Notes: a model not told the origin generated them from the letters alone. Counted from the first letter of the stretch, positions 4,145 to 62,800 are shown. The stretch: 64,000 nucleotides of DNA from a virus (IMGVR_UViG_3300025073_000989); one strand, 5' to 3'. A program made the numbers and translations.

Positions 4145-4341
4145 TTGGATACCTTTATTTTTATGTCGGATTCAGCAATTACAGAGTTTTTGTTTTTAGT
4201 ATTAAAACTTATTAGTATAGGACACGTCATAGGACTACATCTATTTAAATTATAGCAATTGGTTGGTTCTTCACATAAATATGAAATTGATCTATATCTA
4301 CAAAGTGTTCTTAAATCATAGAAAGATAGTTCTATTTTCAT
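4141..4341 (-). CDS. small Cys-rich hypothetical protein
   Basis: Abuts both neighbours. Confidence 0.55.
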   Translation of the reverse strand: MKIELSFYDLRTLCRYRSISYLCEEPTNCYNLNRCSPMTCPILISFNTKNKNSVIAESDIKIKVSK

Positions 4342-4614
4342 TTATACTCCTTTATCAAGCATTACTTGGTTTAATATATCAAACCATTTTTTTCTACACT
4401 TAATTAGATTTTTCTTATTGTTAGGAGTTAACAGCCCGTGGGCTTCCCCATCCTCTATGGCGCGATTTATGTTTTCTAATCCAGAAATAAATATATCATA
4501 TAAATCATTACAATTCATTTCTTTTACTAATTCAGCTAAACATTTTTCACAAAAAATAGAAGCTGAATTGTCATAATTATAACATTCTGGGTCATTACAT
4601 TTTTTTCTACTCAT
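4342..4614 (-). CDS. Cys-rich paralog family A
   Basis: CNDPEC...FCEKCL...DLYDIF. Confidence 0.7.
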   Translation of the reverse strand: MSRKKCNDPECYNYDNSASIFCEKCLAELVKEMNCNDLYDIFISGLENINRAIEDGEAHGLLTPNNKKNLIKCRKKWFDILNQVMLDKGV

Positions 4615-22676: not shown

Positions 22677-22742
22677 AATGACGAGCAAGCAAAGCACGGG
22701 GCTATCAATGTATTTCTTATAATTAGATTAAAAATTTTGTTA

Positions 22743-22903
22743 GCTGATGTGCCGGAACTGGCATACGGCGGTGTGGATATAAGCCTATATGGATGGGGTT
22801 GAGCAATAAATAGCGGCCTTCTGGCTCAAGGCAAAAACCACCGTGGACTAAACAGCCAGACGTAATAGTCCTATTCGGGTTCGACTCCCGGTATCAGCTA
22901 CCA
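22743..22903 (+). ncRNA. 161-nt tRNA-shaped RNA with expanded anticodon arm and large variable arm
   Basis: Leu-type 5' end and D arm (GCTGATG TG CCGGAACTGGCATACGG), canonical T arm GGGTTCGACTCCC, 3' ACCA; 65-nt insert in place of the anticodon loop. Confidence 0.7.
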
Positions 22904-34058: not shown

Positions 34059-34832
34059 ATGGAATTAAAGTTCTTAGGCTCTGGTGCCGCTTTTACTATG
34101 TCAAATAGACACAGCAACATGCTCTTAACACATAATGAAAAAAATTTATTAATTGACTGCGGATCGGATATTAGACACTCTATAGCACAGGCAGGATTAT
34201 CTCACAGAGATATAGATGCTGTTTATATCTCCCACCTACATGGAGACCATGTAGGAGGTATGGAGTGGTTAGCTTTATACTCATATTTTGATCCAGCCGC
34301 CAATAAAGTTAAGTTGTTTATTAATGCCTCTTTAAAAGAAGATATATGGAACCGGGTACTCAGCGCAGGATTAAGTACTATAGAAGGAGTTGACGCAAAT
34401 CTAACGACATATTTTATTTTAATGGATCATACTGTAACTGGAGCATTTGAGTGGGAAGGTATTCAATTTCAGATGATTCAAACAGTACATACCGTGAATG
34501 GACATCTTCTAATGCCTTCTTTTGGATTAATGTTTAAATTAAATGATAAACTGGTTTTTCTTACAACCGATACACAATTCTGCCCTAACCAAATAAAAGT
34601 ATTTTATCATAAAGCAGATCTTATTTTCCATGATTGTGAAACTACTGGATTTAAATCTGGTGTACATGCACATTATGACGACCTAAAAACACTTCCGGTC
34701 GACATTAAAAGAAAAATGTGGTTGTACCATTATCAAGATGAGTGGTTATACCATTATCAAGACACTAGTGATCAAAATAACGTAAAGGATGGTTTTTTGG
34801 GTTTTATACAAAAAGGACAAGTATTTAAATAA
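34059..34832 (+). CDS. MBL-fold metallo-hydrolase (RNase Z-like group)
   Basis: FLGSG, LIDCG, SHLHGDH, TDT, HDC, HAH motifs; AAGGAGG RBS. Confidence 0.88.
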   Translation: MELKFLGSGAAFTMSNRHSNMLLTHNEKNLLIDCGSDIRHSIAQAGLSHRDIDAVYISHLHGDHVGGMEWLALYSYFDPAANKVKLFINASLKEDIWNRVLSAGLSTIEGVDANLTTYFILMDHTVTGAFEWEGIQFQMIQTVHTVNGHLLMPSFGLMFKLNDKLVFLTTDTQFCPNQIKVFYHKADLIFHDCETTGFKSGVHAHYDDLKTLPVDIKRKMWLYHYQDEWLYHYQDTSDQNNVKDGFLGFIQKGQVFK

Positions 34833-39125: not shown

Positions 39126-39536
39126 ATGAAAAAAGAAAATTTGTTGTTTAATTTGTTGTTTGTAGTAATGTTTTTGTTTATTGGTTTCTGTATCACCACG
39201 TGTGGTCCTGCTAAAATTGAACAATTTGTTACAATAGAATCAAACCAGACAGCCTTTTTAGTACCGCTAGAAGGTGAAACTGAAGGCGGACAACAAAAAC
39301 TTATTTCTATTGACTATTTAAATAAAAATAAAATTGCCGCAAAGAGAATTTCACTACCATTAAGATCTAGAAAAACAGGACATGGTTGGTGGAGGTATGA
39401 GTGGCTTCCAACAATGGGTGTACTTACTGTAAATCGTACACCAGTTACTAGAGAATGGACTAGCGATGTTAAAACCGGCACTACTAATATAGCTGATAAC
39501 TTGTCTCTACCCTACCTTTTTTTTATGGGCCGATAG
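39126..39536 (+). CDS. exported protein, possibly 3'-truncated; stop lies inside tRNA-Arg 5' end
   Basis: Signal-peptide-like N-terminus; GGAG RBS; ends in a T run. Confidence 0.6.
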   Translation: MKKENLLFNLLFVVMFLFIGFCITTCGPAKIEQFVTIESNQTAFLVPLEGETEGGQQKLISIDYLNKNKIAAKRISLPLRSRKTGHGWWRYEWLPTMGVLTVNRTPVTREWTSDVKTGTTNIADNLSLPYLFFMGR

Positions 39537-39602
39537 CTCAGCGGATAGAGCAACAGCCTTCTAAGCTGTAGGCCGAAAGTTCAAATCTTTCTCGGCTCAC
39601 CA
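39527..39602 (+). tRNA. trnR: tRNA-Arg (TCT)
   Basis: Full cloverleaf, ct-TCT-aa loop, encoded CCA. Confidence 0.93.
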
Positions 39603-39607
39603 TAAAT

Positions 39608-39682
39608 GCTCCTGTACCTCAATGGTTAGAGGGCGTGGCTTATAACCGCGTCATCCTAGTTCGACTCTAGGCAGGAGCACCA
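39608..39682 (+). tRNA. trnI: tRNA-Ile (TAT)
   Basis: Full cloverleaf GCTCCTG/CAGGAGC, ct-TAT-aa loop, encoded CCA. Confidence 0.9.
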
Positions 39683-40131
39683 ACACTCAACTTAAACAAA
39701 AAAGGGAGCACACAATGGAAATTAATTTTCAGGAGCTATTAAATAATATTGGCATAACTTCTGAGAGAAGGGGACTAGATGGACGCTTTCTTTAGTTTAG
39801 AAACCCATGAAGAACCAGAAACAAAAACTAAATGGAAAAAAAATAAGAGATAATAAATTTTACTTTTAGTTTTTTTTGTTAATAAGGAACAAATATTATG
39901 ATTAAATGTATTTGTGGCGGGCCGAAATAAATCCGTCAGGGCATGCTGTACTATGTCCGGTCCATGCTGAATGATTAAAAACATGTCAATATATCATGAA
40001 CAAATTGAACAAGAAGTCATCTGTTTTAAATGTAAAAAGAAATTCAAATCAAAAGTTGGCTTAAATGAGGATAAAAATAAAATACCTTGTGAATCCTGTT
40101 GGATAAAAATCTTGCTGGAGAGCAATAAAAA

Positions 40132-40746
40132 ATGAAACGTACTGCTTTATTTACAATGTGCTTGTTAATTTTTTCTTTAAGTTTTACCCCAAACACAGTA
40201 ATGGCAGAAACCAACGTAACAGTGAATTTAGAAGACTTAAGTAAAGATGCAGCAGCCGAGGTTATTAAGAAAAATAAAGAAAAGCAAGAAGTGCCTACAA
40301 CTTTAGAAAAGACTGTGGGTAAAGTCAATGGTTTAGATCCTGAAAATATAAATAAATATGTTGATGTTCTTGGAAACGCATTACAGCGTTTTTGTCAAAT
40401 TCTAAATATCGAAGTTAATTCACTTCTGACCTCAACCGCTGGTATTGGGCTTGCTGCACTCATTGTATGGAATTATGGTGGGGTACAAGTACTAAATATA
40501 GTTGTAGGAATTTTAGCGTCAGCGTTCCTTTATCTAACATTTATACCTGTATGGATTTGGTCATATAGAAAATGCCATTTTAAATACAAAATAGCGCCTT
40601 TTTTCTTCGTATGGTCAAAAAGCAAAGAAGAAATAGCAGAGCCTTTGTTTACAGATGAAGCACGAATGGTTTCTATATTTTTACACGTGATAGTTTTTAT
40701 TATTATGACTGTAATATGTATAGCCTTAGCTTTTGGTGGTTGGTAA
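40132..40746 (+). CDS. secreted/membrane protein
   Basis: Signal peptide (..TVMA-ET) and three TM segments. Confidence 0.75.
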   Translation: MKRTALFTMCLLIFSLSFTPNTVMAETNVTVNLEDLSKDAAAEVIKKNKEKQEVPTTLEKTVGKVNGLDPENINKYVDVLGNALQRFCQILNIEVNSLLTSTAGIGLAALIVWNYGGVQVLNIVVGILASAFLYLTFIPVWIWSYRKCHFKYKIAPFFFVWSKSKEEIAEPLFTDEARMVSIFLHVIVFIIMTVICIALAFGGW

Positions 40747-40752
40747 CACAAA

Positions 40753-40828
40753 GAGTCTGTAGCTCAATTGGTAGAGCAATACGCTTTTAACGTATAGGTT
40801 CCGAGTTCGAGCCTCGGCAGACTCACCA
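40753..40828 (+). tRNA. trnK: tRNA-Lys (TTT)
   Basis: Full cloverleaf, ct-TTT-aa loop, encoded CCA. Confidence 0.94.
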
Positions 40829-42082: not shown

Positions 42083-42463
42083 ATGAAAAAAATAGATGCT
42101 GTAACTAAGTTAGCACTTCTTGCGTCTCTATCGGAAACTTATTGTGAGTTAAATCACGGTCCCGATACAGATGACCAGAGGCCTAAAGCTGTAAATTATA
42201 TTGTACAAACTTTAGCACAGGCTGAAACAGACGGTGATCATAAAAACACAAAACACCTTGTAATACCAGTATGTCAAGGCTGTTTAGACGGTATAGAAAG
42301 TGAAGAGTGGTTACTTATTTATTGTTTACAATGTAATAAAAATCACTGGATAAATAAAAGCCTTGCTAAAAATGAATACGGTGGTTATAATATAATATGG
42401 CTTTGTGGTTGTCACGAATGCTTAGCTGTAAATGAAAAAACCAAAGCCGTTTACTTTTCATAA
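42083..42463 (+). CDS. Cys-rich zinc-binding protein
   Basis: CQGC, CLQC, CGCHEC; GGGGG RBS. Confidence 0.7.
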   Translation: MKKIDAVTKLALLASLSETYCELNHGPDTDDQRPKAVNYIVQTLAQAETDGDHKNTKHLVIPVCQGCLDGIESEEWLLIYCLQCNKNHWINKSLAKNEYGGYNIIWLCGCHECLAVNEKTKAVYFS

Positions 42464-42486
42464 GATAAAGAAAAAGCTAAATTTCT

Positions 42487-42545
42487 AATGGTGAAAGATA
42501 GGGTTACTTCCTTCTAACGAAACCTACCTTATCTGCTGATTCCTT
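42487..42545 (+). ncRNA. short Y-RNA-like unit 1
   Basis: AATGGTG...GTTACTTC...ATTCCTT frame shared with two downstream units; stem agatagg/ccttatct. Confidence 0.6.
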
Positions 42546-42581
42546 AGAGATTTAGCACTCAAAAAATACTTAAAGTTTGCC

Positions 42582-42707
42582 AATGGTGTAGAAAAGAGAT
42601 ACTTCATTCCAAGAGCCGGTCAGTAGTTCGAATCTACTTAGGTCAGCAGTGGCCTATAACTCAGCTGGTAGAGTTGCTCTCCAAAAGCCTTTTTTCGCTT
42701 ATTCCTT
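42582..42707 (+). ncRNA. yrlA: Y RNA with tRNA-like domain (YrlA type)
   Basis: T arm agtag-TTCGAAT-ctact (42622-42638), closed acceptor-like stem taggtca/tggccta, then D arm actc-agctGGta-gagt: permuted tRNA order T-AS-D, next to a Ro60 gene. Confidence 0.8.
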
Positions 42708-42737
42708 GACAAACTTTATATTAATTTAGTTATACAT

Positions 42738-42799
42738 AATGGTGTATAATTTGGTTACTTCACTTGGACTGAAAAAAATACCAAATTAGATTGTTCCTT
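42738..42799 (+). ncRNA. short Y-RNA-like unit 3
   Basis: AATGGTG...GTTACTTC...GTTCCTT; stem taatttgg/ccaaatta. Confidence 0.6.
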
Positions 42800-42874
42800 A
42801 TGTATATCTATACCTAAGAACCGGGTACTAATAACAAGTAAGCTTTTAACAAGTAAATTTTGGAGACAAAAACG

Positions 42875-44206
42875 ATGGCAAAAACAAATGTACCTCGTCA
42901 GGCAATATACACACATCAAGGAGCAAAATCAAAACATATTAGTCCGGAACAGCTGTTACGGCGATCAGTCATGAGCTGCTTATTGTGGGAAAACGAGTTT
43001 TATGAAGATGGTGAAACAATAGCTACAAGAATAGCAAATACCATTGCTCTAGTTGCTCCTGAAAAGGTAGCTTTAATAGCTATCGAAGCCAGAGAAAAAA
43101 TGAAATTAAGGCATATACCTTTATTTATAGTACGTGAAATGGCAAAACTTAATACACATAAATATTTAGTTTCACATACTTTAAATAGAATAATTCAACG
43201 AGCAGACGAACTTACAGAATTTCTAGCATTGTATTGGAAGGACGGTAAACGGCCGATTTCTGCGCAAGTTAAGAAAGGATTAGCTTCTGCTTTTTCTAAG
43301 TTTAATGAATATTCATTAGCAAAGTATAATAGTGATGGAGAAATAAAACTAAGGGATGTTCTTTTTCTTTCTCATGCTAAACCAAAAGATGAAGAACAGG
43401 CTACTTTATGGAAACGCTTAATAAACAACGAACTTGTTGTTCCAGACACTTGGGAAGTATCTCTATCTGCTGGAAAAGATAGAAAAGAAACTTGGGAGCG
43501 TTTAATAAACGAAGATAAACTTGGCGGTTTGGCTTTTTTGCGCAATTTAAGAAACATGAAAGCTGCTGGTGTTTCAGAAGATATTGTTTTTTATGGTCTA
43601 AATAAACTAAATGTAGAAAGAATTTTACCTTTTCGTTTTATTACTGCGGCTAGATATGCTCCCCAGTGGGAAGATGAAATCGAAACAGTGATGTTGAAAT
43701 GTCTAGAAAGCAAAAATAAACTAAAAGGAACTACAGCACTACTTATTGATAGATCAGGTAGTATGTGTAGAAAACTATCCGAAAAATCAGAACTTTCAAG
43801 ATATGATGCTGCTTGTGGACTGGCCGTACTAGTAAGAGAAGTAGCAGAGCATGTAAAGATATATACGTTTTGTGGAGGATCTGGTCGTACAGATATTCCA
43901 TTTGAGCTGTTACATATTCCACCAAGAAGAGGTTTCGGTTTAACGGCCGCCCTAGGGTCCTACAAAAACGCAGGAACTATGCTTGGAAGAGCAACTACTG
44001 AACTATATCAAAAAGATAATTTTGATAGACTAATTGTATTAACCGATGAACAGAGCCAAGATAAAGTACCAGATCCTAAAGGATTGGCTTATATGATAAA
44101 TGTAGCCTCTGCCAGAAACGGTGTAGGTTATGGTCCGTGGATTCACATCGATGGCTGGTCAGAAGCAGTAGTTGATTTTATTGAAACACTAGAAACAGTT
44201 AATTAG
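42875..44206 (+). CDS. rsr: Ro60/Rsr RNA-binding protein (TROVE + vWA)
   Basis: LRRSVMSCLLWENEFYEDG, RADELTEFLA, KFNEYSLAKY, TWEVSLS, AFLRNLRNM, vWA MIDAS LIDRSGSM, LTDEQS; GGAG RBS before ATG 42875. Confidence 0.92.
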   Translation: MAKTNVPRQAIYTHQGAKSKHISPEQLLRRSVMSCLLWENEFYEDGETIATRIANTIALVAPEKVALIAIEAREKMKLRHIPLFIVREMAKLNTHKYLVSHTLNRIIQRADELTEFLALYWKDGKRPISAQVKKGLASAFSKFNEYSLAKYNSDGEIKLRDVLFLSHAKPKDEEQATLWKRLINNELVVPDTWEVSLSAGKDRKETWERLINEDKLGGLAFLRNLRNMKAAGVSEDIVFYGLNKLNVERILPFRFITAARYAPQWEDEIETVMLKCLESKNKLKGTTALLIDRSGSMCRKLSEKSELSRYDAACGLAVLVREVAEHVKIYTFCGGSGRTDIPFELLHIPPRRGFGLTAALGSYKNAGTMLGRATTELYQKDNFDRLIVLTDEQSQDKVPDPKGLAYMINVASARNGVGYGPWIHIDGWSEAVVDFIETLETVN

Positions 44207-44222: not shown

Positions 44223-44711
44223 ATGAAAATTATAGAAGGTCTTAGGAAGATCAAACAGCTTGATAGAAAAATTAAAAAAAATATCTTAAGGATTACGGAT
44301 TGGTCGTCTTATTTAGATAACATCGACCAAGCAGAAAAACCATTGTACGGTAAAGAAGAGTTACGGGTAATGATTCAGCAAATAGGAGATTGGTCTAAGG
44401 AAAAGGCGCGTATACGGCACAATATACATATAACCAACGCTTTAAAGAAGGTTATTTTCAAGGGTACGGAAATTACAGTAGATGAACTTTTACTTTTACA
44501 AAGTACTACTATTCCAGATATGCTAGCTGCACACAAAGCGCTAAATCGCAAAGATAAAGGGCGATTTGGTGTTCAAGACGTAAAGACAGTAGTAAGGTTA
44601 CAGTACGACCCAAAAGAAAAAGAAGTTGTAGTTGATAGTCTATTAAATGATTTAGAAATTATCGGTGATATCTTAGATAGAGTAACTTTAGAAACTGATA
44701 TTATTGAATAA
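44223..44711 (+). CDS. coiled-coil protein, DIP1984-like (tentative)
   Basis: MKIIEGLRKIKQLDRKI N-terminus and L..L...N/T C-terminal helix recall that family; family call unverified. Confidence 0.5.
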   Translation: MKIIEGLRKIKQLDRKIKKNILRITDWSSYLDNIDQAEKPLYGKEELRVMIQQIGDWSKEKARIRHNIHITNALKKVIFKGTEITVDELLLLQSTTIPDMLAAHKALNRKDKGRFGVQDVKTVVRLQYDPKEKEVVVDSLLNDLEIIGDILDRVTLETDIIE

Positions 44712-44728: not shown

Positions 44729-44947
44729 ATTTATACCTCTGATGGTAAAATTGATAAAAAGAAACTTTTACATTGGCGAGTGGGACCACCCACAATTGTG
44801 AGAATTGTGATTCAGGATTTGATTGTTAAGATTTAAAAATGCCACCGTGCTATGTTGATTTCCAAATAAAAATCCTAAATCTGGAAAAAAAAGTTTTTAG
44901 AAAGTTTCTCTCTCTTCAATACCAGTTAGGCAGTCAGAGGTATAAAT
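44729..44947 (+). ncRNA. candidate ~220-nt structured RNA
   Basis: Perfect 14-bp closing helix atttatacctctga/tcagaggtataaat with nested agaaacttt/aaagtttct and ggattt/aaatcc plus hairpins; no ORF. Confidence 0.7.
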
Positions 44948-45812: not shown

Positions 45813-45885
45813 GGAGATGTATTTCAAAGGGGAGAATGTTGGCCAGTTGGGCGTGAAGGTGTAAGTTCGAATCTTGCCATCTTTT
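45813..45885 (+). pseudogene. degenerate tRNA
   Basis: GGAGATG/CATCTTT acceptor and GTTCGAATC T loop, but broken anticodon arm and no CCA. Confidence 0.55.
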
Positions 45886-45904
45886 TGTTTAAAAATAATA
45901 TAAT

Positions 45905-45991
45905 GCATCTATGGCGGAACTGGTAGACGCCTGGGACTTAAAATCCCATGGGTATACGCCCGTCCCGGTTCGACTCCGGGTAGGTGCACCA
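45905..45991 (+). tRNA. trnL: tRNA-Leu (TAA)
   Basis: Class II cloverleaf, ct-TAA-aa loop, encoded CCA. Confidence 0.94.
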
Positions 45992-45994
45992 TTA

Positions 45995-46072
45995 CTGCGT
46001 GTAGCTCAGTCTGGCCAGAGTACGTGCCTTGGACGCACGAAGTCGTTCGTTCGAATCGAACCACGCAGACCA
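45995..46072 (+). tRNA. trnP: tRNA-Pro (TGG)
   Basis: C1-G72, A73, ct-TGG-ac loop, encoded CCA. Confidence 0.9.
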
Positions 46073-46100
46073 AAACAAAACTAAAAAATAGGACAATACT

Positions 46101-46400
46101 ATGGAAATAGAAGATTTTCCTTGTTGCTGTACCGCCAAAGTATTAAAGAACTTTGGGGAAACGCATGTTACTGAAGGCCAATTCGTAAAAGAAGAAGAAA
46201 AGGCTTTAGAAGAAAGGATAGTAAAATATACTAATAGATATAGTTCTTTAGCAGTACTTACTACTATTACAAACAGCGAGCAAAAGACGGCAAATAAGGT
46301 ATTAAAAAAATTAGGGTTTAAATCCACCAAGTGGTTAAAAAAGGTTCAACATAAAGAAACTAAAATTAAGCTTTGGTGGAAACCGCTATATAAGGAGTAA
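46101..46400 (+). CDS. hypothetical protein, possibly degenerate GNAT fold
   Basis: TNSEQKTANKVLKKLGF resembles GNAT motif B. Confidence 0.45.
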   Translation: MEIEDFPCCCTAKVLKNFGETHVTEGQFVKEEEKALEERIVKYTNRYSSLAVLTTITNSEQKTANKVLKKLGFKSTKWLKKVQHKETKIKLWWKPLYKE

Positions 46401-46413
46401 ACTAGTTTAGTGA

Positions 46414-46488
46414 TGGGGTATCGCCAAGCGGTAAGGCACAAGACTTTGACTCTTGTTATCGAGGGTTCAAATCCTTCTACCCTATCCA
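46414..46488 (+). tRNA. trnQ: tRNA-Gln (TTG)
   Basis: Full cloverleaf, ct-TTG-ac loop, encoded CCA. Confidence 0.92.
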
Positions 46489-46504
46489 GAATAAAAGGTT
46501 AATT

Positions 46505-46810
46505 ATGAAACTTGATAGAGGTACAATAGTTAAATGGCAAATTCATAAATTAAATTTAACTAAAAAACAATTAAAAGACTACTATCCTGAAGTAAAGATA
46601 GCACCTGCAGTTTTTACTGGAACAGTGGAAGAAGATCCAACAGGTAGATACTCCTCCGGATACCACATGAGGTCATCTTTAATAGTTTCAATAAAACGAA
46701 AAGGGGATATACAAATAGTAGAAACTTTAAACTCTATATATAAACTTAAAGGTCTTCCTGGCGACATTTTTCCTGATTTAGGAAATGATGCTTTGAATAT
46801 TTTTTATTAA
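46505..46810 (+). CDS. hypothetical protein
   Basis: AAGG RBS; GYHMRSSLIV...ETLNSIY. Confidence 0.7.
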   Translation: MKLDRGTIVKWQIHKLNLTKKQLKDYYPEVKIAPAVFTGTVEEDPTGRYSSGYHMRSSLIVSIKRKGDIQIVETLNSIYKLKGLPGDIFPDLGNDALNIFY

Positions 46811-46832
46811 TGGAAGTAAATTTGATTTTGAA

Positions 46833-46997
46833 TGGGAATGTGGCGAAAGTTAAACGCAGATTTAGATAGTTATACTACTAGATGAATAACTATTCTAAAA
46901 ATCCGTCTCGTGTTTACATTAGAAGTACAGGGTAATTCCGTATTATCTATATATAGACCAATATAGACTTGTAGGTATCGAATCCTGCCATCCCACC
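46833..46997 (+). ncRNA. second ~165-nt tRNA-shaped RNA with elongated anticodon and variable arms
   Basis: Leu-type D arm GGCGAAAGTTAAACGC, long anticodon hairpin, gtct/agac variable region, gtagg-tatcgaat-cctgc T arm; imperfect acceptor and no clean CCA. Confidence 0.55.
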
Positions 46998-47010
46998 GAT
47001 AAAATTTAAG

Positions 47011-47048
47011 AAAACGGGAGCAATAGCCAACTATTTCTCCCGTTTTTT
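47011..47048 (+). terminator. intrinsic terminator
   Basis: aaaacgggag...ctcccgttttttt. Confidence 0.8.
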
Positions 47049-47079
47049 TATTGAGAAGTTAAATTAACAGGAGACACCA

Positions 47080-47326
47080 ATGCTACTACAACTAATCTAT
47101 TTTTATTTTGTTATTATTTTATTGACTTTTTTATATCGCTGTAGAGTCGAAAGAAATAAAAACAATAACCCGATAGAAAAATGGAAAAAAAACACACTGG
47201 GTTGAGAGCTGTCTAATTAGTTTGTTTTGGCCATTTGTAGTTATTTTTATTGTTATGCTGCTTATTGTAGTTTTTATAATTGAGCTACCTTATAAATTAA
47301 CTAAGGAGAGAATCCGCCGCGGTTAA
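47080..47326 (+). pseudogene. membrane protein frameshifted in an A8 run (47185-47192)
   Basis: Removing one A joins two hydrophobic segments into one ORF; AGGAG RBS. Confidence 0.55.
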
Positions 47327-47339
47327 CAATAATTTAAAG

Positions 47340-47414
47340 TGCGGGGTCGAGGAGTGGCACCTCAGAAGGTTCATATCCTTCGTCACGGCAGTTCGATTCT
47401 GCCCCCCGCTTCCA
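47340..47414 (+). tRNA. trnM: tRNA-Met (CAT), initiator-like
   Basis: T1:T72 mismatch, A11-T24, tt-CAT-at loop, encoded CCA. Confidence 0.85.
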
Positions 47415-47791: not shown

Positions 47792-48535
47792 ATGCCAAAA
47801 GAGAATATAATTATTGTTGGAGACATACATGGTAAATGGGGAGAGATAAATTTTCTAATTAATAAGAAAAGTCCTAGAATTGTACTTCAGTGTGGTGACT
47901 TTGGGTTTTTTCCAAAGTTCCATAATACAAGAGGAATAGACTCAGAAGAATTTGAAATGTATGAACATACCAAAATCAGAAAACCATGGAATCAATACGG
48001 TATTAAAAACCCTAATACCGTGGTATATTTTGCTCCCGGTAATCATGAGGACTGGAATTCTTTAGATGAGTTAGAAGTAAATAAAAATTTTGAATTAATG
48101 CCAAACGTATTTTATCAACCATTTGGTAGTACAATTACTCTTCCAGACGGGAGAACGGTACTATTTTGTGGCGGAGCTAGATCTATTGACAGAGACTGGC
48201 GCACCTCAGGGGTAGATTGGTTTGAACAAGAAGAAATAAGTTATAGAGATATGGATAGACTTCCAAACATAGCTGTAGATATAGTTATATCCCATACTTG
48301 CCCTGAAGAAATAATGCTTCAGATGAGTACTAAAGGAATTTACTATGACCAAACAAACCCTTTACACAAAGACTCATCGCGGCAAGCTCTTTCATACATA
48401 ATGGAAAAATATAAACCAGATTTATGGTATTTTGGGCACTTTCATAGAGAAATTAAAGGTATGTGGAAGAATACTAGATGGTATGCTTTGTCTATGCCTG
48501 AAGGACATGGTAGGTGGTGGAGATACCTAAAATAA
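47792..48535 (+). CDS. calcineurin-like metallophosphoesterase
   Basis: GDIHG, CGDFG, GNHED, SHTCP, GHFH. Confidence 0.9.
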   Translation: MPKENIIIVGDIHGKWGEINFLINKKSPRIVLQCGDFGFFPKFHNTRGIDSEEFEMYEHTKIRKPWNQYGIKNPNTVVYFAPGNHEDWNSLDELEVNKNFELMPNVFYQPFGSTITLPDGRTVLFCGGARSIDRDWRTSGVDWFEQEEISYRDMDRLPNIAVDIVISHTCPEEIMLQMSTKGIYYDQTNPLHKDSSRQALSYIMEKYKPDLWYFGHFHREIKGMWKNTRWYALSMPEGHGRWWRYLK

Positions 48536-48973: not shown

Positions 48974-49779
48974 ATACTATTTATTTAGAACCACCATCAA
49001 CTGTAGATCTATTTTATCCAAACGACAATATGGAGTTTGCTTTTTGTTCTAGGATTAAACGAGAAAGAGTCTCACAAATAACTGTATTTGCAAAATGTCG
49101 TGAGGTGTTAACCGGTTTTATTAGAACGCAACTGTGTGGTTTTGATCCAAACGCTATACCGTGGTTTTATGTAAGAAAGCGTATAGATTTATTAAAAGTT
49201 AGAATGTTAGTTTTAAAAAGATATACACCCGGAACAGAAATAAATAAAGCGCTGATTTTTAACAACGAAGTGGAGTTTGGAATTAGAATTTTAAATTTAT
49301 TTGAAAAAAAACTAAAATGGACAGAAACTAAAGTTTATAAGGTAGAGTTAATTAAGGAATTATATACTAATGCAATTCCTGATCTCTATATGATAGAGGC
49401 CTCGAAACAATGGTTATTTTCTCCGGCCTGTTTCTCTTTGTTTTTATTATTATTTAGAGCCGGAAAATATTATAGAGATTTATCTGTAAAAGATATTTCG
49501 TCTTTTTTAGCCAGTATAGCTGATAAAAAAATGGAAGAACACTTACATTATAAAAAAGATCAGTGGTTAATATTTCTTAAAAATACCAATAGAATATATA
49601 AAAAAAATATAATAGAACGATACAGACCAGAAAATATAATAAAACGATACAGACCAGAAAGAGTATATAGTAACTCAAAAGAGGGTATATTTTCCATGCT
49701 AAGTGGAACAACAGTGGATAAAGTGTCTTATAAAGCATGGAAAAATATTTTAGATGAACAAGGTAAACAAGATGCTTAG
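48970..49779 (+). CDS. hypothetical protein, paralog family C
   Basis: FAF...CREVL...IDL.K.RMLV shared with 50942-51730. Confidence 0.75.
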   Translation: MNTIYLEPPSTVDLFYPNDNMEFAFCSRIKRERVSQITVFAKCREVLTGFIRTQLCGFDPNAIPWFYVRKRIDLLKVRMLVLKRYTPGTEINKALIFNNEVEFGIRILNLFEKKLKWTETKVYKVELIKELYTNAIPDLYMIEASKQWLFSPACFSLFLLLFRAGKYYRDLSVKDISSFLASIADKKMEEHLHYKKDQWLIFLKNTNRIYKKNIIERYRPENIIKRYRPERVYSNSKEGIFSMLSGTTVDKVSYKAWKNILDEQGKQDA

Positions 49780-50923
49780 TATCGTAGAGTTTATAAAAAA
49801 ATGTAAAGACATCGATTTAGTAAATCAACTACTATGTTTAAAATTAAAGTTAAATATTAAAAAACAGCCAATAGCTTTAAAGGCTGGAAACACCGAATAC
49901 TTATACCTATACAATCGTACTGAAAAGTCCCCTAATTGTATTATTTCTAACGAAGCTAATGGTTTAATCTTAGATAAAGAAGGAAAAGTAGTAAGTAGAA
50001 GCCTTAATCATTTATATAATGGTGAAAGCTTTAAAGAAAAAATTGATTGGGATAAAGCAACAGCAGAAGAATTTATAGATGGAGTACAAGTTACACTATT
50101 TTTTTACAAAGACTATTGGTTTATACAAACTAGAGATGATATTAACGGTAGAAATTTAATTCATCAGAATGATATTTGGAGTATTAACTACGAAGTGTCA
50201 CATTTGCTTCAAAAACAAAGATATTACACAAATATCTTTAATCAGCTAGATAAAGATAAAACATATACATTTGTATACGTTCGTGCACAAGAAGTACAAA
50301 ATTTAGATAGTAATAAAAACAAACTGTATTTAATAGCAATTTATAATAAAGAGACTGAAGGGTACTTAACTGAAGAAGAGCTAGATGAATATAAATTAAT
50401 TTCTGGTTTTAGTAGACCAAGAAGATTCGCAACAGTATCATTTTCTTATTTTAATAAAAGAATTACTGATTTTTCTACTTTAGTAGTTGTTAACCAAGAC
50501 ATTTCTAAAAAACCCAAAGTAGAACAAAGATTTAAGTTCGAAAGAAAGGCGGAAACACAAAACGAGACCTCAGTTGTTATAAAATACTTAGCAGAAAAAG
50601 TAATTCAAGGAAGGCATCAAGAGGTATCATTAAAAAATTTTCCAGAGTATAGAAGACTAATAGCTTTATTTATAAGAGTAAAATTAGATATAATTTCTTT
50701 TGTACAAAAAACAATAAAAGAAAATAAAGAAACATCCTTAACTACTTTTAGTGAGCAAATAAAAAGACATCACCTAAGCGATATACTGATTGCATCTAAA
50801 AAAACTCCCGAAAGTATTAGGATAAACGTAAGCAGAATAGACAGTAGTAGATTTATTAAACTAGCACAGATAAGATATTGGACACAATATGACGATGCTA
50901 TAAATGCAAGTAAAACTATATAG
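49772..50923 (+). CDS. T4 Rnl1-like RNA ligase fold, catalytic Lys apparently replaced
   Basis: EANGLILDKEGKVVSRSLNHLYN (cf. ECRGLI..SRPF.KFFN); motif I reads EFIDG instead of KxDG. Confidence 0.7.
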   Translation: MLSIVEFIKKCKDIDLVNQLLCLKLKLNIKKQPIALKAGNTEYLYLYNRTEKSPNCIISNEANGLILDKEGKVVSRSLNHLYNGESFKEKIDWDKATAEEFIDGVQVTLFFYKDYWFIQTRDDINGRNLIHQNDIWSINYEVSHLLQKQRYYTNIFNQLDKDKTYTFVYVRAQEVQNLDSNKNKLYLIAIYNKETEGYLTEEELDEYKLISGFSRPRRFATVSFSYFNKRITDFSTLVVVNQDISKKPKVEQRFKFERKAETQNETSVVIKYLAEKVIQGRHQEVSLKNFPEYRRLIALFIRVKLDIISFVQKTIKENKETSLTTFSEQIKRHHLSDILIASKKTPESIRINVSRIDSSRFIKLAQIRYWTQYDDAINASKTI

Positions 50924-52024: not shown

Positions 52025-52939
52025 ATGAAAAGATTTACAATTGGTACTGACCCGGAATTTTTTCTAAAAGAAAAAGAAACCGGAAAATTAGTATCAGCCA
52101 TACCATATATTAACGGAACAAAGCATGAACCTGAAGCCCTACCATCTGGTGGTACTATTCAAAGGGATAATGTAGCAGTAGAATTTGCAACTGCACCAGC
52201 AGTCTCAATGGATGACTTTATAAAAAAGATCAGAGAAACATTCAAAGATGTACTTAAAGTAATTCCAGATAATTTCGATTTAGTAGCAACACCATCTGCT
52301 GTATTTGATGATGATCAATTAGAACACCCTGACGCTTTGACTTTCGGATGTGATCCAGATTATAACGCTTGGACCATTTCCGAAAACTCTGAAAATAATA
52401 AACCTAGTCATCCGAACAAAAACTTTAGAAGCTGTGGGGGCCATATACACGTTGGACATGTAAGCGGTGATGGTAACGATTTTCTGCTAGATCCTTTTGG
52501 TAAAATTAATATGGTTAGGGGTATGGATCTAGTTCACGGAATAGTATCAGTTATACTAGATAGTTCTATCGAGTCGATAGAAAGAAGAAAGCTGTACGGA
52601 AGCGCCGGCTGTCACCGCCCAACAGACTATGGAGTTGAGTATAGAGTTCTAAGTAATTATTGGCTAAAGAGCCCTTTTCTAGTAATGCTTATGGATTCTT
52701 TAACACAAGATGTTTTAAAGTTAATTAAAGAAAACAAACTTAATCAACTTATTAATTTTGTTGGTGAACAAGAAATTCAAAGTATTATAAACAATGGAGA
52801 TGTCGCAAATGCCAATAGTATTTTTAATAAAGCTATAAAGAGCTGTCTAAGTGCAGATTCTATTTTTTACTTTGAAGAGAGTCTAAAGAGAGTTGAAAAT
52901 ATTAACCTGAAAAAAGAATGGGGACTTGAGGAGGTCTAA
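52025..52939 (+). CDS. phiEco32-like COOH-NH2 ligase type 2
   Basis: IGTDPEFFL, QRDNVAVEF, GCDPDYNAW, GGHIHVG, YGVEYRVLSN. Confidence 0.9.
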   Translation: MKRFTIGTDPEFFLKEKETGKLVSAIPYINGTKHEPEALPSGGTIQRDNVAVEFATAPAVSMDDFIKKIRETFKDVLKVIPDNFDLVATPSAVFDDDQLEHPDALTFGCDPDYNAWTISENSENNKPSHPNKNFRSCGGHIHVGHVSGDGNDFLLDPFGKINMVRGMDLVHGIVSVILDSSIESIERRKLYGSAGCHRPTDYGVEYRVLSNYWLKSPFLVMLMDSLTQDVLKLIKENKLNQLINFVGEQEIQSIINNGDVANANSIFNKAIKSCLSADSIFYFEESLKRVENINLKKEWGLEEV

Positions 52940-53734
52940 ATGTCAAAACGTATTGCAATTCCGGCCAGTAAAAGTAAAAATCAATTTTTTATTAATCAAG
53001 CGTATATTGAATATTTAACACAGGCTGGGTATGAGGTAGTAATAGTTACACCATCAAGTAGTATACATGACACTGTAGCATCATGTTTTGGTTTAGTACT
53101 ACCTGGTGGAATTGATATAGACCCGATTTATTATGGAGAAGATAATATATGTTGCCAAGGAAGTGACCCGGAAAAAGATGATTTCGAAAGGAAGTTGTTT
53201 TATTCTTTCTTGAATCAAAACAAACCAATATTTGGTATATGCCGTGGTTTCCAATTGATAATGCGAGAGCTTATAGTCAACAAAATTCCTGGATATAAGT
53301 CTTTTTGTTTCTATCAGAATTTAAATAGGCACAAAAATGTAGACGAGCTAGGAATAGCAAGGACAATACCAAGCCATAGTGTTACAGCAGCAGTTGGTAC
53401 TTTGTATGGAGTGGAAGAACTATATAGCAGCATATTTGTAAATTCTATGCACCATCAAGCAGTAATTATTAAAGTAGAAAGAAAAACAAACCCTTTAGTC
53501 CAAGTAGGACAGATATTTCCTCTAGCTGTAACAAAAATAGGTCTAACGAGTAATATTTCCAACGAAGAGATTAAGAAGAAAACCAAAGAGGCTTTTGTAG
53601 TAGAAGCTTTAGGGGCAAGTATAAATAACACAAAAATAAGAGCAGTACAATGGCACCCGGAAGAGCTTCGAGATATAGCTCTATTACAAAACTTCTTTGG
53701 TGAAAAAGAAGAAAAGTTAATTGTAGGTAAATAA
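52940..53734 (+). CDS. class I glutamine amidotransferase, peptidase C26 family
   Basis: LPGGIDIDP, GICRGFQ nucleophile elbow, VNSMHHQ, QWHPE. Confidence 0.9.
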   Translation: MSKRIAIPASKSKNQFFINQAYIEYLTQAGYEVVIVTPSSSIHDTVASCFGLVLPGGIDIDPIYYGEDNICCQGSDPEKDDFERKLFYSFLNQNKPIFGICRGFQLIMRELIVNKIPGYKSFCFYQNLNRHKNVDELGIARTIPSHSVTAAVGTLYGVEELYSSIFVNSMHHQAVIIKVERKTNPLVQVGQIFPLAVTKIGLTSNISNEEIKKKTKEAFVVEALGASINNTKIRAVQWHPEELRDIALLQNFFGEKEEKLIVGK

Positions 53735-59861: not shown

Positions 59862-62800
59862 ATGTCTTCAGTACAGATTGATCAAAAATTGAAATTTCTC
59901 TGCGAAGGAATCAAAAAACAATTTTTTAGTAAATCAAGTGTAGATCTGATCAGTAAAAAGAAAGAAGGAAATCTTAGTATTACTTTTGAAAACAACTCTT
60001 TATGGATCAATATTTATGATGGAAAAAATAGCCACAGCATAGCTATACCAATACCATATTTAGACAAAGATTTACAGCTTTTAGTAAAGAACGATGTAGT
60101 ACGAGCAACTTGCCCGTATTTTGTAGTAGGACTTAACCAAGAGTTAGATTATATGGATCTCCTGTATACGGTTATTTGTGGGGATCCGTCATGTATTATT
60201 GAGGAGGATATTTTTCAAAGAACGCCCTTTATTCAGCAAATTAGCTATTCTATAGAAAATGGTAACACATCATTTATAGCCCTAAAACTACAAAAAGTTA
60301 TCAACAATATAGTAAATAATTTACCACTGCACGAGGGCTCAATGAAGTCTTGGATCATGAACAAACGGCTCATGTTTATAGATCCAACATTTAACGCTTT
60401 GATTAACCCGAAAGACAGACTTTCATATCAAGTAAGCAAAGCTGAAGCGTTTTTTAATAAAGGATGGACACAAATAGGTCTTCCTGATGGTACAATGGTA
60501 GATAAAAATTACATGTTGAAGGTAGATTTAAAGCGCTTTGTTCCTTTTGGAAACCAGTTTCACAACCCAGCTAGAAATTTATACTCTACATTGGGGATGA
60601 ATGGCGACGAGCTGCCAATGGTTCGTTCTGAGTCAATGCAGATCCTTATTGATAAAGGTATAAGTAGAACAGGATGGAATTTGTTTACGGTTTTTTATGA
60701 TATTCCTGATACATGGGAAGATCAAATAATGGTAGATAGTTCACATGCAACAAAATTTATAACATATACAAAAAGGTACCAATGCTTTGGCACTGTATTA
60801 GTAAAAGAAAACGACGATTTAAAACAAGGACAACAACTATCAAAAGCAATAGACGGCAACGGTGAGATATTTGATGAATTAGCCGAAGAGGCACATGTAT
60901 CTAAAATTAATGAAATACTAGTTAATGTTGGTGGTGTTCCAGTAAAAGGATTTAATGTTATAGTATCTTATAAACGATATCTAAAAGAGGGTGTAAAAAT
61001 AACCAACCTTTCGGCAAACAAAGGTGTGATACGATTAGGGAAGCTAGGTTTTGCTGTAGACCCAAAAACTGGAGAACAACGAAAAATAGATGTAATTGTA
61101 GGACTGTCAGCAGTTAAAAAAAGAAAGAATTATGCTCAAATATTTGAAGCACTATTAAATGTTGTAAACCAAGAAAGAGTTACAATAGTAGCCGACGATA
61201 TTAAAAGTACTCTCGGTGATATCAAAAATCGTCTATTGGCGGAAGGTTTTCCAGAAGACGGTAGTAGGATGTGTCATACATACGCAGGTAATTTTTCTGC
61301 ACTATGTGGTACTGTTTTCTGGGGAGTTATCCATGATGTAGAGAATACAATATGGGACAAAGATACGACGTTTGGGGTAAATGGTAGAGGTTTAAGGACA
61401 ACTGGCTTAAAGTTTTCTACAGTTGAGTTTAGAGCGCTAGAAACACGCTTTGGTAAAGATAATCCAGTACTAGCAGAAGTGTTATCTTATTCCCAAGGAA
61501 CAACCGATTTGACAAATATGTTGGATGTTCTAAAAAGTAAACTTAATATAATTAAACCAGAAACACCGTGTTTGACTATAGATAATGTTAGAGAGGTTGA
61601 TCAAACAACGTCAACTATAGTAAACGGAGATATACTTTACGGCACTGTTGTAGATGAAATGTTTTATCCTAATGGTTTTGTACTACAACTGCCCTATATT
61701 TTTACAACAGCCTTAAACGGGAACAATAAAGTTGTATATGAAGGCATAAAAAATACTAATGTAAGTGCCCACAAGAAAATTAGTATAGACAAATTATATA
61801 TTCCATGTGGAAATTTAAGAAAGAGTTGGCGCCACGGTACAGCTAAGTATGGGTTAAGCGAGATAGGTTCCGCAGTAAATAGAATAGTAATTACATCAAA
61901 AAGGTTAATAAAAGAACCAACCTCTAAAAACAACATTACTATGTATTACAGCGCAATATCAAACTACTTTAAGCTAATAAGTAGAATACTTGGCACTAAA
62001 AATGGAGAGCTAAATAACTACGGTATGGCTGTAAGATACCCATATTCTGCAAAAGCAGTTGCAACCTTAAGTACAACTTTACCAAAAAACGTAATAGAAA
62101 TTAATTCATCAGTAGCAAAAAAATTACAAATAGAAACAGGAGATGTAGTACTAGTAGAAAGATTTCCATGTTTAGGTTTTATGTCGCTTAGGCCACAAAA
62201 AATAAAGGTTACAGAAGACGATAAATGCAGATACACGATACGTGTTAGCGGTAATAGTTTAGGTTCTATGGGGTTAGATTTTGATGGTGATGTTATATAC
62301 ATAGCTGCCTTTCATACAGAAGAAGCAAAAGCACTTCTAAATAAAGAATGGAAAAATCCCGACAAAACGTGCTATGATATTATTAAAAAATACAACGTTC
62401 AAAAAAGTAACCCTAGATTACAGGAAGTTACTATTGACAATATTGATATAAAGGGATTTTCTCCGCTAACTATAGAAGAGCAAACAGGTATAGTAGGAGA
62501 ACTTGCGGGAGTAAAAGCCTTTACTGGACCGGTAATAGCCTTTTTATACAATTTAATGAGAATTCTTGAAAATTCTAATATAAATAATAAAAAAAGAACG
62601 GCCGCCGGTCTAGAAGAAATGTTTACCATAATAGGAGAATCAGTTTTTGATTTAAAGCATGGGATCAAATCCCCACATGACGTGTTTGTAGAAGCAATAT
62701 GTACAGCAGATATAAATACGTTAGTAGAAAATGACTTTGATAGAAGTACTTCTACTATTTTATGTAATTTAATAAAACAAAAAGCAAAAGAACTCGGAGT

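What the first reader, a model, noticed from the sequence alone, without database searches (positions are those of the whole stretch)
42487..44206. Phage Ro60 preceded by a tandem trio of Y-RNA-like genes
Seen: three units each starting AATGGTG, carrying G(T/A)TACTTC about 9 nt later, a compensatorily varied stem (agatagg/ccttatct, agaaaag/cttttttc, taatttgg/ccaaatta) and ending (A/G)TTCCTT; the middle one has a permuted tRNA module (T arm, closed acceptor stem, D arm). Established: Rsr/Ro60 binds Y RNAs encoded next to it, YrlA types mimic tRNA, and such loci occur in some phages. Inference: the phage builds several distinct Ro60 RNPs, one tRNA-mimicking and two minimal, for RNA surveillance or as decoys against tRNA-targeting defence; the array layout and shared motif are the part worth describing.
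Basis: partly seen in the sequence, partly recalled or inferred. Interest (0 to 1): 0.85.

Follow-up and report, generated by a model that had tools for sequence, protein, structure and literature searches.

The report
Phage Ro60 gene with three Y RNAs
An uncultured giant phage carries a gene for the ring-shaped RNA-binding protein Ro60 and, directly in front of it, three small RNA genes of the Y RNA kind (one mimics a tRNA); this is a real but fairly ordinary, unannotated example of a partnership already known from bacteria and other phages.

Summary
Three units (42484-42548, 42579-42710, 42735-42802, + strand) fill the gap before a 443-aa gene (42875-44206). That gene is a true Ro60: it hits Pfam TROVE, aligns full length to Thermus phage phiLo Ro60, keeps the DxSxS...D metal site, and its 13 best PDB fold matches are all Ro60.

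All three units share one "handle": an outer stem, a 1-nt bulge, a GG/CC step, a 4-nt/7-nt internal loop carrying GGUG(A/U)A, a 9-bp inner helix, then UACUUC. The middle unit also carries a permuted tRNA module (T arm, closed 7-bp acceptor stem, D arm) and matches Rfam YrlA only below threshold (31 bits against 69).

A covariance model built from 13 small units of 12 loci finds exactly these three sites in the 64-kb window. It also finds 35 sites beside related phage Ro60 genes and 107 upstream of bacterial homologues, all on the gene's strand. Covariation is strong: 15 of 16 pairs show compensatory changes.

So this is the known Ro60 plus Y RNA (YrlA plus small hairpin Y RNA) system. Arrays of 2 to about 8 units are common in this clade, and this scan has noted similar arrays on other DNA. 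Expression and binding remain untested.

The parts
42484..42548 (+). Unit 1, a small hairpin-type Y RNA-like gene. The outer stem can extend to 42478-42555. It runs: handle motif GGUGAAAG, 9-bp inner helix, UACUUC, a short UUC/GAA hairpin, then GCUGAUUCC closing.
   Evidence: Fold; R1 model hit of 68 bits, E 2.8e-15; pattern hit; extended stem seen.
42579..42710 (+). Unit 2, a YrlA-type Y RNA-like gene. The outer stem can extend to 42574-42717. It has the same handle (GGUGUAG, inner helix 42591-42599 with 42689-42697, AUACUUC) closing a permuted tRNA module.
   Evidence: Rfam YrlA 31.1 bits, E 7.3e-5, below the gathering score of 69. R1 hit of 42.8 bits, E 1.6e-8, although unit 2 was not in the seed.
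42612..42680 (+). tRNA-like module inside unit 2. Anticodon-stem analogue AGAGC 42612-16 pairs with GCUCU 42676-80. Variable loop CGGUC is at 42617-21. The T arm is at 42622-38 with loop UUCGAAU. The closed 7-bp acceptor-like stem is at 42639-56 with loop GCAG. UA is at 42657-58. The D arm is at 42659-74 with loop AGCUGGUA. There is no anticodon loop and no free CCA end.
   Evidence: Alignment to the Rfam YrlA consensus; fold; coordinates read. G15/C48, U8/A14, G18-G19 and U54/A58 equivalents are present in the sequence.
42735..42802 (+). Unit 3, a small hairpin-type Y RNA-like gene. The outer stem can extend to 42729-42809. It runs: handle motif GGUGUAUA, 9-bp inner helix, UACUUC, a UUCA/UGAA hairpin, an A-rich strand, then GAUUGUUCC closing.
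   Evidence: Fold; R1 hit of 69 bits, E 1.5e-15; pattern hit.
42875..44206 (+). Ro60 (Rsr) gene, 443 aa. The ATG at 42875 lies 9 nt after GGAG at 42862-65. The mechanical ORF list starts at TTG 42860. The protein is a TROVE HEAT-repeat ring plus a vWA domain with a metal site (D292, S294, S296, D391).
   Evidence: Pfam TROVE E 3.8e-16; phrog_850 E 3.5e-42; PDB 9KOP/9L5Y phiLo Ro60 E 7.5e-24 over residues 12-441; invariant residues in 16 homologues; AlphaFold model pLDDT 85; the top 13 Foldseek PDB hits are all Ro60, TM 0.60-0.69.

Best explanation
The locus encodes a phage Ro60 ribonucleoprotein system: one Ro60 ring protein and three Y RNAs.

Shown here:
- The protein is a Ro60 by sequence and by fold.
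- The three RNAs share a covarying handle. It consists of an outer stem, a single bulged nucleotide, two G-C pairs, an asymmetric internal loop carrying GGYGNAG on the 5' side and (C/U)UUGUUCC on the 3' side, a 9-bp helix, and then UACUUC.
- This handle recurs only next to genes of this Ro60 clade and always on the gene's strand.

Inferred:
- GGYGNAG is this clade's version of the published Ro60-contact motif GNCGAAN0-1G. UUAC is the published YUAY motif. Each RNA therefore docks on Ro60 through the handle.
- The variable heads give the particles different partners or properties. The heads are a 7-8 nt loop on a UUC/GAA mini-helix in units 1 and 3, and a permuted tRNA body in unit 2.
- The three units are packed 11-18 nt apart, with no promoter or terminator signal above chance. 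They are probably made as one precursor, possibly together with the Ro60 mRNA, and then cut out, as shown for Mycobacterium smegmatis YrlA/YrlB.
- By analogy with Deinococcus Yrn1 and Thermus phage phiLo Yrl1/2, the most likely job during infection is to tether Ro60 to a host 3'-5' exoribonuclease such as PNPase. This would remodel or clear structured RNAs. The small Y RNAs would act as gates or alternative adaptors.
For: Protein:
- Searches give the Ro60 family, full-length homology to a solved phage Ro60, an invariant metal site and the Ro60 fold.

RNA in the window:
- The exact shared pattern occurs 3 times against 0 expected.
- The small units fold to the same shape.
- The YrlA alignment covers the tRNA module of unit 2.

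Comparative evidence:
- In alignment A1 (13 small units, 12 loci), 95% of cells pair, against 62% in shuffles and 37-50% in slid registers. 15 of 16 pairs have changes on both sides, and 0 of 500 shuffles reach this.
- Model R1 finds only the three units in the window.
- It finds 35 sites in 19 phage loci, with 93% of cells paired.
- It finds sites in the cultured phages CcrColossus, Xanthomonas Olaya, Brevundimonas Gurke and crAss001.
- It finds 107 sites in 62 bacterial loci, all on the + strand and all upstream of the Ro60 homologue.

Literature:
- PMC4201824 gives the GNCGAAN0-1G and YUAY motifs, at least two Y RNAs per species (one tRNA-like, one long hairpin), YrlA in 22 phages, and processing from one precursor in M. 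smegmatis.
- PMC12135203 shows that phage phiLo Ro60 binds two upstream Yrl RNAs and forms a complex with host PNPase in vitro.
- PMC12282133 reports three very abundant RNAs upstream of an Rsr-like gene in Listeria phage CKA15.
Against: - There is no expression or binding evidence for this locus.
- Unit 2 scores 31 bits against Rfam YrlA, whose gathering score is 69. Units 1 and 3 match no Rfam family.
- The handle motif departs from the published consensus. It has U for C, U for A in units 2 and 3, and a Y-U mismatch or bulge where YrlA has a C-G pair. Its equivalence to the Ro60 contact site is therefore inferred, not shown.
- Units 1 and 3 (65-78 nt) are shorter than the 80-130 nt quoted for characterised Y RNAs.
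- I picked the seed units by motif, and I chose their 3' ends partly by complementarity. This inflates pairing in the outer stem. It does not affect the inner helix, which is 92% paired with 8 of 9 pairs compensatory.
- The host, and whether it has PNPase, are unknown.
Confidence: 0.82

Rival explanations
1. The three structures are not separate RNAs. They are cis-acting parts of the Ro60 mRNA leader, through which Ro60 or another factor controls its own translation or stability.
For: The units lie on the same strand and fill the whole gap between the upstream stop (42463) and the Ro60 start (42875). No terminator-like site is found, and promoter-like sites are not above chance. No + strand ORF is present.
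Against: In related loci the same units lie downstream of the Ro60 gene (L007, L016, crAss001). Other loci carry arrays of up to about 8 units over 1.2 kb (CcrColossus). Neither fits a leader element. Published Y RNAs of M. smegmatis are cut from a precursor upstream of rsr (PMC4201824).
Confidence: 0.08
2. The handle RNAs are real small RNAs, but their conserved motifs are read by a protein other than Ro60, for example a host tRNA-binding or RNA-decay enzyme. Their linkage to Ro60 would then reflect shared function only.
For: UACUUC is invariant across phages of very different hosts and GC content, from 29% to 65%. A universally conserved host factor could explain that. The YrlA literature expects an unknown tRNA-elbow-binding effector (bioRxiv 10.1101/312249).
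Against: The only gene shared by all loci examined is Ro60. All 145 model hits lie beside it and on its strand. The GGYGNAG loop sits where the published Ro60-contact motif sits (PMC4201824).
Confidence: 0.07
3. The units are decayed tRNA-derived repeats or mobile-element remnants in a tRNA-rich region, with no function.
For: The locus lies between tRNA genes (39527-40828 and 45813-47414), and unit 2 contains tRNA arms.
Against: Compensatory changes keep both helices across 34 distinct sequences. The motifs are invariant. The units occur only beside Ro60 genes. Units 1 and 3 have no tRNA features.
Confidence: 0.02

Closest known systems
Bacterial Rsr (Ro60) with YrlA and YrlB/Yrn2 Y RNAs (Salmonella, M. 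smegmatis, D. radiodurans; Chen et al. 2014, PMC4201824; Rfam RF02553)
   Same: The RNAs are encoded within 2 kb of Ro60 on the same strand. [quoted passage not shown] There is a 5' motif of the GNCGAAN0-1G type and a YUAY motif one helix further in. The 7-bp acceptor-like stem resembles that of M. smegmatis YrlA.
   Different: The handle motif is GGUG(A/U)A(N)G or a near variant, with a pyrimidine lacking a Watson-Crick partner, and YUAY is extended to an invariant UACUUC. The Rfam score is far below the gathering threshold. The small units are 65-78 nt.
Thermus phage phiLo Ro60 with Yrl1 and Yrl2 (PMC12135203; PDB 9KOP, 9L5Y)
   Same: It is a phage-encoded Ro60 and the closest solved structure to this protein (E 7.5e-24, 25% identity). 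Tandem Y RNA-like genes lie directly upstream. A stem-bulge-stem handle carries a CGAA-type motif.
   Different: phiLo has two RNAs rather than three, and the text I searched mentions no tRNA-like domain. Binding to Ro60 and to host PNPase was shown in vitro there. Nothing has been shown experimentally for this locus.
YrlA-like RNAs reported in 22 bacteriophages, including Caulobacter phage CcrColossus (PMC4201824; PMC12135203 cites the list)
   Same: The Ro60 clade is the same (CcrColossus gp139 is 46% identical). The handle is the same, and small and tRNA-like units are mixed.
   Different: CcrColossus has about 8 units over 1.2 kb; this phage has 3. In the text I could read, the published work describes the tRNA-like member and does not mention the arrays of small units. 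Its supplement was not available.
Listeria phage CKA15: three highly abundant RNAs within 2 kb upstream of an Rsr-like gene (PMC12282133)
   Same: Three small transcribed regions lie upstream of a phage Ro60-like gene in the same direction. The authors propose that they are Y RNAs.
   Different: That case has expression data but no structural or motif analysis. I did not test sequence relatedness to this handle.

Membership tests
Ro60 / Rsr protein | TROVE (HEAT-repeat ring) domain | tested here: met
   Pfam PF05731 E 3.8e-16, 59.7 bits against a cut-off of 23. The model is helical over residues 24-278. The top 13 PDB fold matches are all Ro60.
Ro60 / Rsr protein | C-terminal vWA domain with a metal-ion site (DxSxS ... 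T ... D) | tested here: met
   D292, S294, S296 and D391 are invariant in 16 homologues and align to the same motif of phiLo Ro60. The model has an alpha/beta domain over residues 283-426, and vWA structures are the next fold matches.
Ro60 / Rsr protein | Binds Y RNA on the outer ring surface and single-stranded RNA ends in the hole | not testable with these tools
   No RNA-protein prediction or binding data were available.
Y RNA (bacterial/phage type, as defined in PMC4201824) | Encoded close to the Ro60 gene on the same strand | tested here: met
   The units lie 73-391 nt upstream of the start on the + strand. All 145 model hits in other loci are on the gene's strand beside the gene.
Y RNA (bacterial/phage type, as defined in PMC4201824) | Long stem formed by the 5' and 3' ends, interrupted by a bulged or looped region that carries the Ro60-contact motif GNCGAAN0-1G | tested here: inconclusive
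   The stem and loop are present and covary. The motif is a variant: GGUGAAAG in unit 1 (one change), GGUGUAG in unit 2 and GGUGUAUA in unit 3. Related loci carry the exact motif (GGCGAAG in L003). Equivalence is by position and similarity only.
Y RNA (bacterial/phage type, as defined in PMC4201824) | Discrete stable RNA of about 80-130 nt that depends on Ro60 and is bound by it | not testable with these tools
By sequence, unit 2 is about 132-144 nt. Units 1 and 3 are 65-81 nt, shorter than the quoted range.
YrlA (Rfam RF02553) | Score at or above Rfam's gathering threshold (69 bits) | tested here: not met
   The score is 31.1 bits, E 7.3e-5 in a 501-nt search, and nothing appears at gathering level. 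The model drops one helix and leaves the GGUGUAG handle outside the alignment. Clade relatives behave the same way, at 26-50 bits.
YrlA (architecture as in PMC4201824 and bioRxiv 10.1101/312249) | Permuted tRNA-like domain: T arm, closed acceptor-like stem, UA linker, D arm, anticodon-stem analogue without a loop, and conserved tertiary-pair nucleotides | tested here: met
   The T loop is UUCGAAU, the D loop is AGCUGGUA, the variable loop ends in C, and UA precedes the D stem. The closed stem is 7 bp. All align with high posterior probability to the YrlA consensus (coordinates).
YrlA (architecture as in PMC4201824 and bioRxiv 10.1101/312249) | Conserved YUAY following the handle helix | tested here: met
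   The sequence is UUAC in units 1 and 3 and AUAC in unit 2. UAC is invariant in 13 of 13 seed units. Strictly, the first base is A in unit 2, so that unit keeps only UAY.

The most novel reading that the evidence does not exclude
The handle may be a standard docking module: outer stem, GGYGNAG loop, 9-bp helix, invariant UACUUC opposite an A-rich strand, and a UUC/GAA mini-helix. Phages and bacteria of this Ro60 clade would then plug interchangeable heads onto it: a plain loop, extra hairpins, a T arm alone, a full permuted tRNA, or, in crAss001, a true tRNA body with the handle in place of the anticodon arm. One Ro60 ring could thereby be directed to several different partners. The invariant UACUUC would mark a second protein-contact site not yet described for Y RNAs. 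In phages the set of heads would be tuned to take over host RNA decay or tRNA-handling enzymes.
Probability: 0.3. Interest if true: 0.6.

Novelty: new member of a known kind. Interest (0 to 1): 0.4.

Why it matters
What Ro60 and Y RNAs do in bacteria and phages is still largely open. This locus adds no new principle, but the comparison it prompted gives three practical results.

- It defines a covarying handle with two near-invariant motifs that current Rfam models miss. These motifs are ready-made mutational targets.
- It shows that cultured phages carry unannotated arrays of these RNAs: crAss001 on Bacteroides, CcrColossus on Caulobacter, and phages of Xanthomonas and Brevundimonas. Some are apparently mis-annotated as tRNA genes.
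- It therefore names tractable systems in which the function of phage Ro60 particles could be tested. crAss001 is one, where the Ro60 gene is an early gene (PMC8375218).

Tried and rejected
- Rfam at gathering thresholds found only tRNAs in the window and in 17 related loci. The families are either missed (YrlA below threshold) or absent (small units).
- Megablast of 19 kb of the window against phage records found nothing. Distant blastn matched only the TROVE gene of crAss-like phages at 66-74%, so the phage itself has no close sequenced relative in that collection.
Expression could not be examined.
- My first register-based covariation script used a loose anchor and mis-registered many units. 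I discarded its numbers.
- A relaxed duplex scan for handles was swamped by chance duplexes inside coding sequence. I discarded it in favour of the covariance model.
- The supplement of Chen et al. 2014 and the 2020 Annual Review were not available. I could not check whether multi-unit arrays in CcrColossus were already tabulated.
- The other odd structured RNAs of the window (22742-22903, 46833-46997, 44729-44947) do not carry the handle motifs and are not hit by the model. I do not count them as part of this system.
- The decoy idea for anticodon nucleases is rejected as unlikely because the mimic lacks an anticodon loop.
- The neighbouring genes (42083-42463, 44223-44711) gave no informative family match.

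Full report
**What is in the sequence.**
The stop of the upstream ORF is at 42463 and the Ro60 start is at 42875. No + strand ORF lies between them. The gap is almost filled by three units on the + strand.
- Each unit contains AATGGTG, then 11 nt, then TACTTC. This pattern occurs three times in the 64 kb (42487, 42582, 42738) against zero expected.
- Units 1 and 3 fold alone into the same shape. From the outside in: an outer stem, one bulged U, two G-C pairs, a 4-nt/7-nt asymmetric internal loop, a 9-bp helix, unpaired UAC, and a short UUC/GAA hairpin.
- With flanks, the outer stems extend to 42478-42555 and 42729-42809.
- Unit 2 has the same closing part around a 69-nt body.
- The units lie 11-18 nt apart once the extended stems are counted.
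- Consensus scans give no terminator, and promoter-like sites are not above chance.

**The protein.**
The ORF is best started at ATG 42875, 9 nt after GGAG.
- It hits Pfam TROVE (E 3.8e-16) and phrog_850 "RNA-binding protein" (E 3.5e-42).
- It aligns over residues 12-441 to the solved Ro60 of Thermus phage phiLo (E 7.5e-24).
- The vWA metal-site residues D292, S294, S296 and D391 are invariant in 16 homologues.
- An AlphaFold model (pLDDT 85, pTM 0.79) has Ro60 structures as its 13 best PDB matches: phiLo, Xenopus, human and Deinococcus Rsr. They align over the full length at TM 0.60-0.69. Isolated vWA domains follow.
- On this evidence the gene is a Ro60 gene.

**Unit 2 as a tRNA mimic.**
Rfam YrlA matches 42592-42698 at 31.1 bits (E 7.3e-5 in the small search). 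This is below the gathering score of 69. The well-aligned part is the tRNA-like core:
- variable loop CGGUC;
- T arm with loop UUCGAAU;
- a closed 7-bp acceptor-like stem with a GCAG loop;
- a UA linker;
- D arm with loop AGCUGGUA;
- a 5-bp anticodon-stem analogue with no loop.

The nucleotides for the usual tRNA tertiary pairs are present (8/14, 15/48, 18-19 with 55-56, 54/58). This is the architecture described for YrlA (PMC4201824; bioRxiv 10.1101/312249).

The low Rfam score has a visible cause. The Rfam model maps its first helix onto this clade's inner helix, deletes its second helix, and leaves the real 5' motif and outer stem unaligned. The same happens for relatives.

**Relatives.**
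The nearest proteins in IMG/VR are 43-60% identical. In GenBank phages the same clade includes Caulobacter CcrColossus, the Brevundimonas and Xanthomonas phages, Rhizobium phages and crAss001 (37-49% identical). The window has no close DNA relative. Reading the flanks of the related genes showed 1-4 or more similar units in nearly every locus. They usually lie upstream and sometimes directly downstream (L007, L016). They mix small units, units with extra hairpins, one with only a T arm (L012), and full tRNA-like units.

**Covariation.**
- I aligned 13 small units from 12 loci (A1). G...A...G of the 5' motif, UACUUC and two 3' positions are invariant.
- I tested the 16-pair handle structure on this alignment. 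95.2% of cells pair, against 62% after shuffling and 37-50% with the partner slid by 1-3 columns.
- 15 of 16 pairs show changes on both sides, and 0 of 500 shuffles reach this.
- Caveat: I chose the units by motif and set some 3' ends by complementarity. This favours the outer stem. The inner helix was not used for selection and is 92% paired, with 8 of 9 pairs compensatory.

**A model and what it finds.**
- The covariance model R1 finds exactly three sites in the window, including unit 2, which was not in the seed (42.8 bits, E 1.6e-8).
- It finds 35 sites in 19 phage loci. On that model-fitted alignment 93% of cells pair and 16 of 16 pairs are compensatory.
- In cultured phages it finds four sites in CcrColossus, up to four in Xanthomonas phage Olaya (two of them marginal), three in Brevundimonas phage Gurke and one in crAss001. 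Rfam YrlA sub-threshold hits lie between them.
- Reading CcrColossus shows about 8 units over 1.2 kb.
- A scan of one genome per prokaryotic species found 62 loci with a homologue that is mostly 43-65% identical (two at 33-37%). These are in Acidobacteriota, Caulobacterales, Hyphomicrobiales and others.
- R1 finds 107 sites in those loci, all on the gene's strand and all upstream of it, often 3-4 per locus.
- The handle is therefore a general companion of this Ro60 clade in cells and phages alike.

**Relation to the published motifs.**
Chen et al. 2014 (PMC4201824) define two motifs. The first is a 5' motif GNCGAAN0-1G, thought to contact Ro60. The second is a conserved YUAY at nucleotides 22-25 of Salmonella YrlA.
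- Here the 5' motif is GGUGAAAG (unit 1), GGUGUAG (unit 2) and GGUGUAUA (unit 3). Relatives carry GGCGAAG, GGCGUAG, GCUGCAG and others.
- UUAC or AUAC follows one helix later.
- I read these as the same two motifs. The difference is that the pyrimidine of GGYG has no Watson-Crick partner, whereas YrlA has a C-G pair there.
- When the 5' side changes from GG to GC (L009) or AG (L015, L016), the 3' side changes from CC to GC or CU. So this step is a real pair.
- The equivalence is by position and similarity. It has not been shown by binding.

**How it most likely works.**

Shown:
- a Ro60 gene;
- three structured, covarying, Ro60-linked RNA elements, one of them a tRNA mimic.

Inferred from established systems:
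- Each RNA binds Ro60 through the handle.
- The heads differ so that the particles differ.
- Tight packing without signals suggests one precursor that is processed, as in M. smegmatis (PMC4201824).
- The 7-bp acceptor-like stem of unit 2 matches the feature that makes M. smegmatis YrlA an RNase P substrate. Cleavage there is possible but speculative.

For function, the best precedent is tethering of Ro60 to PNPase, as in Deinococcus and Salmonella. For a phage Ro60 with two upstream Yrl RNAs this was shown in vitro (PMC12135203). I put about 0.4 on an exoribonuclease-tethering role. The rest is spread over gating, RNA repair and unknown effectors.

The setting fits RNA metabolism. Eight tRNA genes flank the locus. 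An Rnl1-like ligase homologue and a metallophosphoesterase lie 3.6-5.6 kb downstream.

A decoy role against anticodon nucleases is unlikely because there is no anticodon loop.

**Novelty.**
- Ro60 with neighbouring Y RNAs is known in bacteria and in phages. Chen et al. report it in 22 phages, and phiLo has been studied biochemically.
- A trio of abundant RNAs upstream of a phage Rsr-like gene was reported in 2025 (PMC12282133).
- This scan has also noted arrays of handle RNAs next to Ro60-like genes in many other genomes.
- The present locus is therefore a new, unannotated member of a known kind.
- What I did not find in the texts I could read: the shared handle consensus for small and tRNA-like units, the invariant UACUUC extension, and array sizes of up to about 8. 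crAss-phage papers mention the TROVE gene only as an early gene.

**Verdict.**
Interest is moderate (0.4).

Noticed in passing
L018 (Bacteroides phage crAss001, NC_049977.1) 3949-4028, 4042-4117, 4124-4267 and about 4396-4527; record about 96,190-96,770: The 900-nt unannotated gap after the crAss001 TROVE gene gp96 holds handle RNAs. Two of them are built the other way round from YrlA. They have a normal open 7-bp acceptor stem, D arm and T arm, and the Ro60-type handle forms a closed hairpin (GG/CC step, 9-bp helix, UACUUC) where the anticodon arm should be. Rfam's tRNA model scores one of them at 46.6 bits over 144 nt. ARAGORN calls no tRNA there.
   Followed up: partly
L019 (Caulobacter phage CcrColossus) 1673-1740 and L021 (Brevundimonas phage Gurke) 2266-2340: The annotated tRNA-Gln and tRNA-Ser next to the Ro60 genes get no Rfam tRNA hit at E 0.01. 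They overlap YrlA-like hits inside the Y RNA arrays. They are probably tRNA-like modules of Y RNAs mis-annotated as tRNA genes.
   Followed up: partly
L019 1263-2460 (CcrColossus, record about 108,500-109,700): About eight handle-bearing units lie in a row upstream of the Ro60 gene gp139. This is the largest array I saw, and it is in a cultured phage.
   Followed up: partly
window 49754-50923 and 47792-48535: A weak match to the T4 Rnl1-type RNA ligase family (phrog_562, E 3e-6) and a metallophosphoesterase (Pfam E 8.6e-14) lie 3.6-5.6 kb downstream of Ro60, beyond a tRNA cluster. They may form an RNA end-healing and sealing set.
   Followed up: no
window 34059-34832: The ORF matches the anti-Pycsar Apyc1 family (Pfam PF23023, E 1e-24, 87.8 bits against a cut-off of 50). 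It is a likely counter-defence phosphodiesterase.
   Followed up: no
window 59862-63170: A 1102-aa ORF has weak matches to two different phage RNA polymerase beta-subunit families, in its first and second halves (phrog_3295 and phrog_2987, E about 1e-6). This fits a phage-encoded RNA polymerase, so host-type promoter scans may not apply to this genome.
   Followed up: no
window 52025-53734: A phiEco32-like COOH-NH2 ligase (phrog_3815, E 6.6e-62) sits next to a class-I glutamine amidotransferase / peptidase C26 gene.
   Followed up: no
L007 4563-4660: Between the second and third handle units lies a long hairpin with a T-arm-like piece (GGTTTGATTCC) but no handle motifs. Its relation to the array is unclear.
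   Followed up: no
L021 5842-6187 (Brevundimonas phage Gurke): A permuted tmRNA match (Rfam RF04321, 57.7 bits against a gathering score of 47) lies 2 kb downstream of the Ro60 gene.
   Followed up: no
L023-L084 (62 bacterial loci): Ro60 homologues about 45-65% identical to the phage protein occur in Acidobacteriota, Asticcacaulis and other Caulobacterales, Hyphomicrobiaceae and Hoeflea. Arrays of 1-4 or more handle RNAs lie upstream. Whether these loci sit in prophages was not examined.
   Followed up: partly
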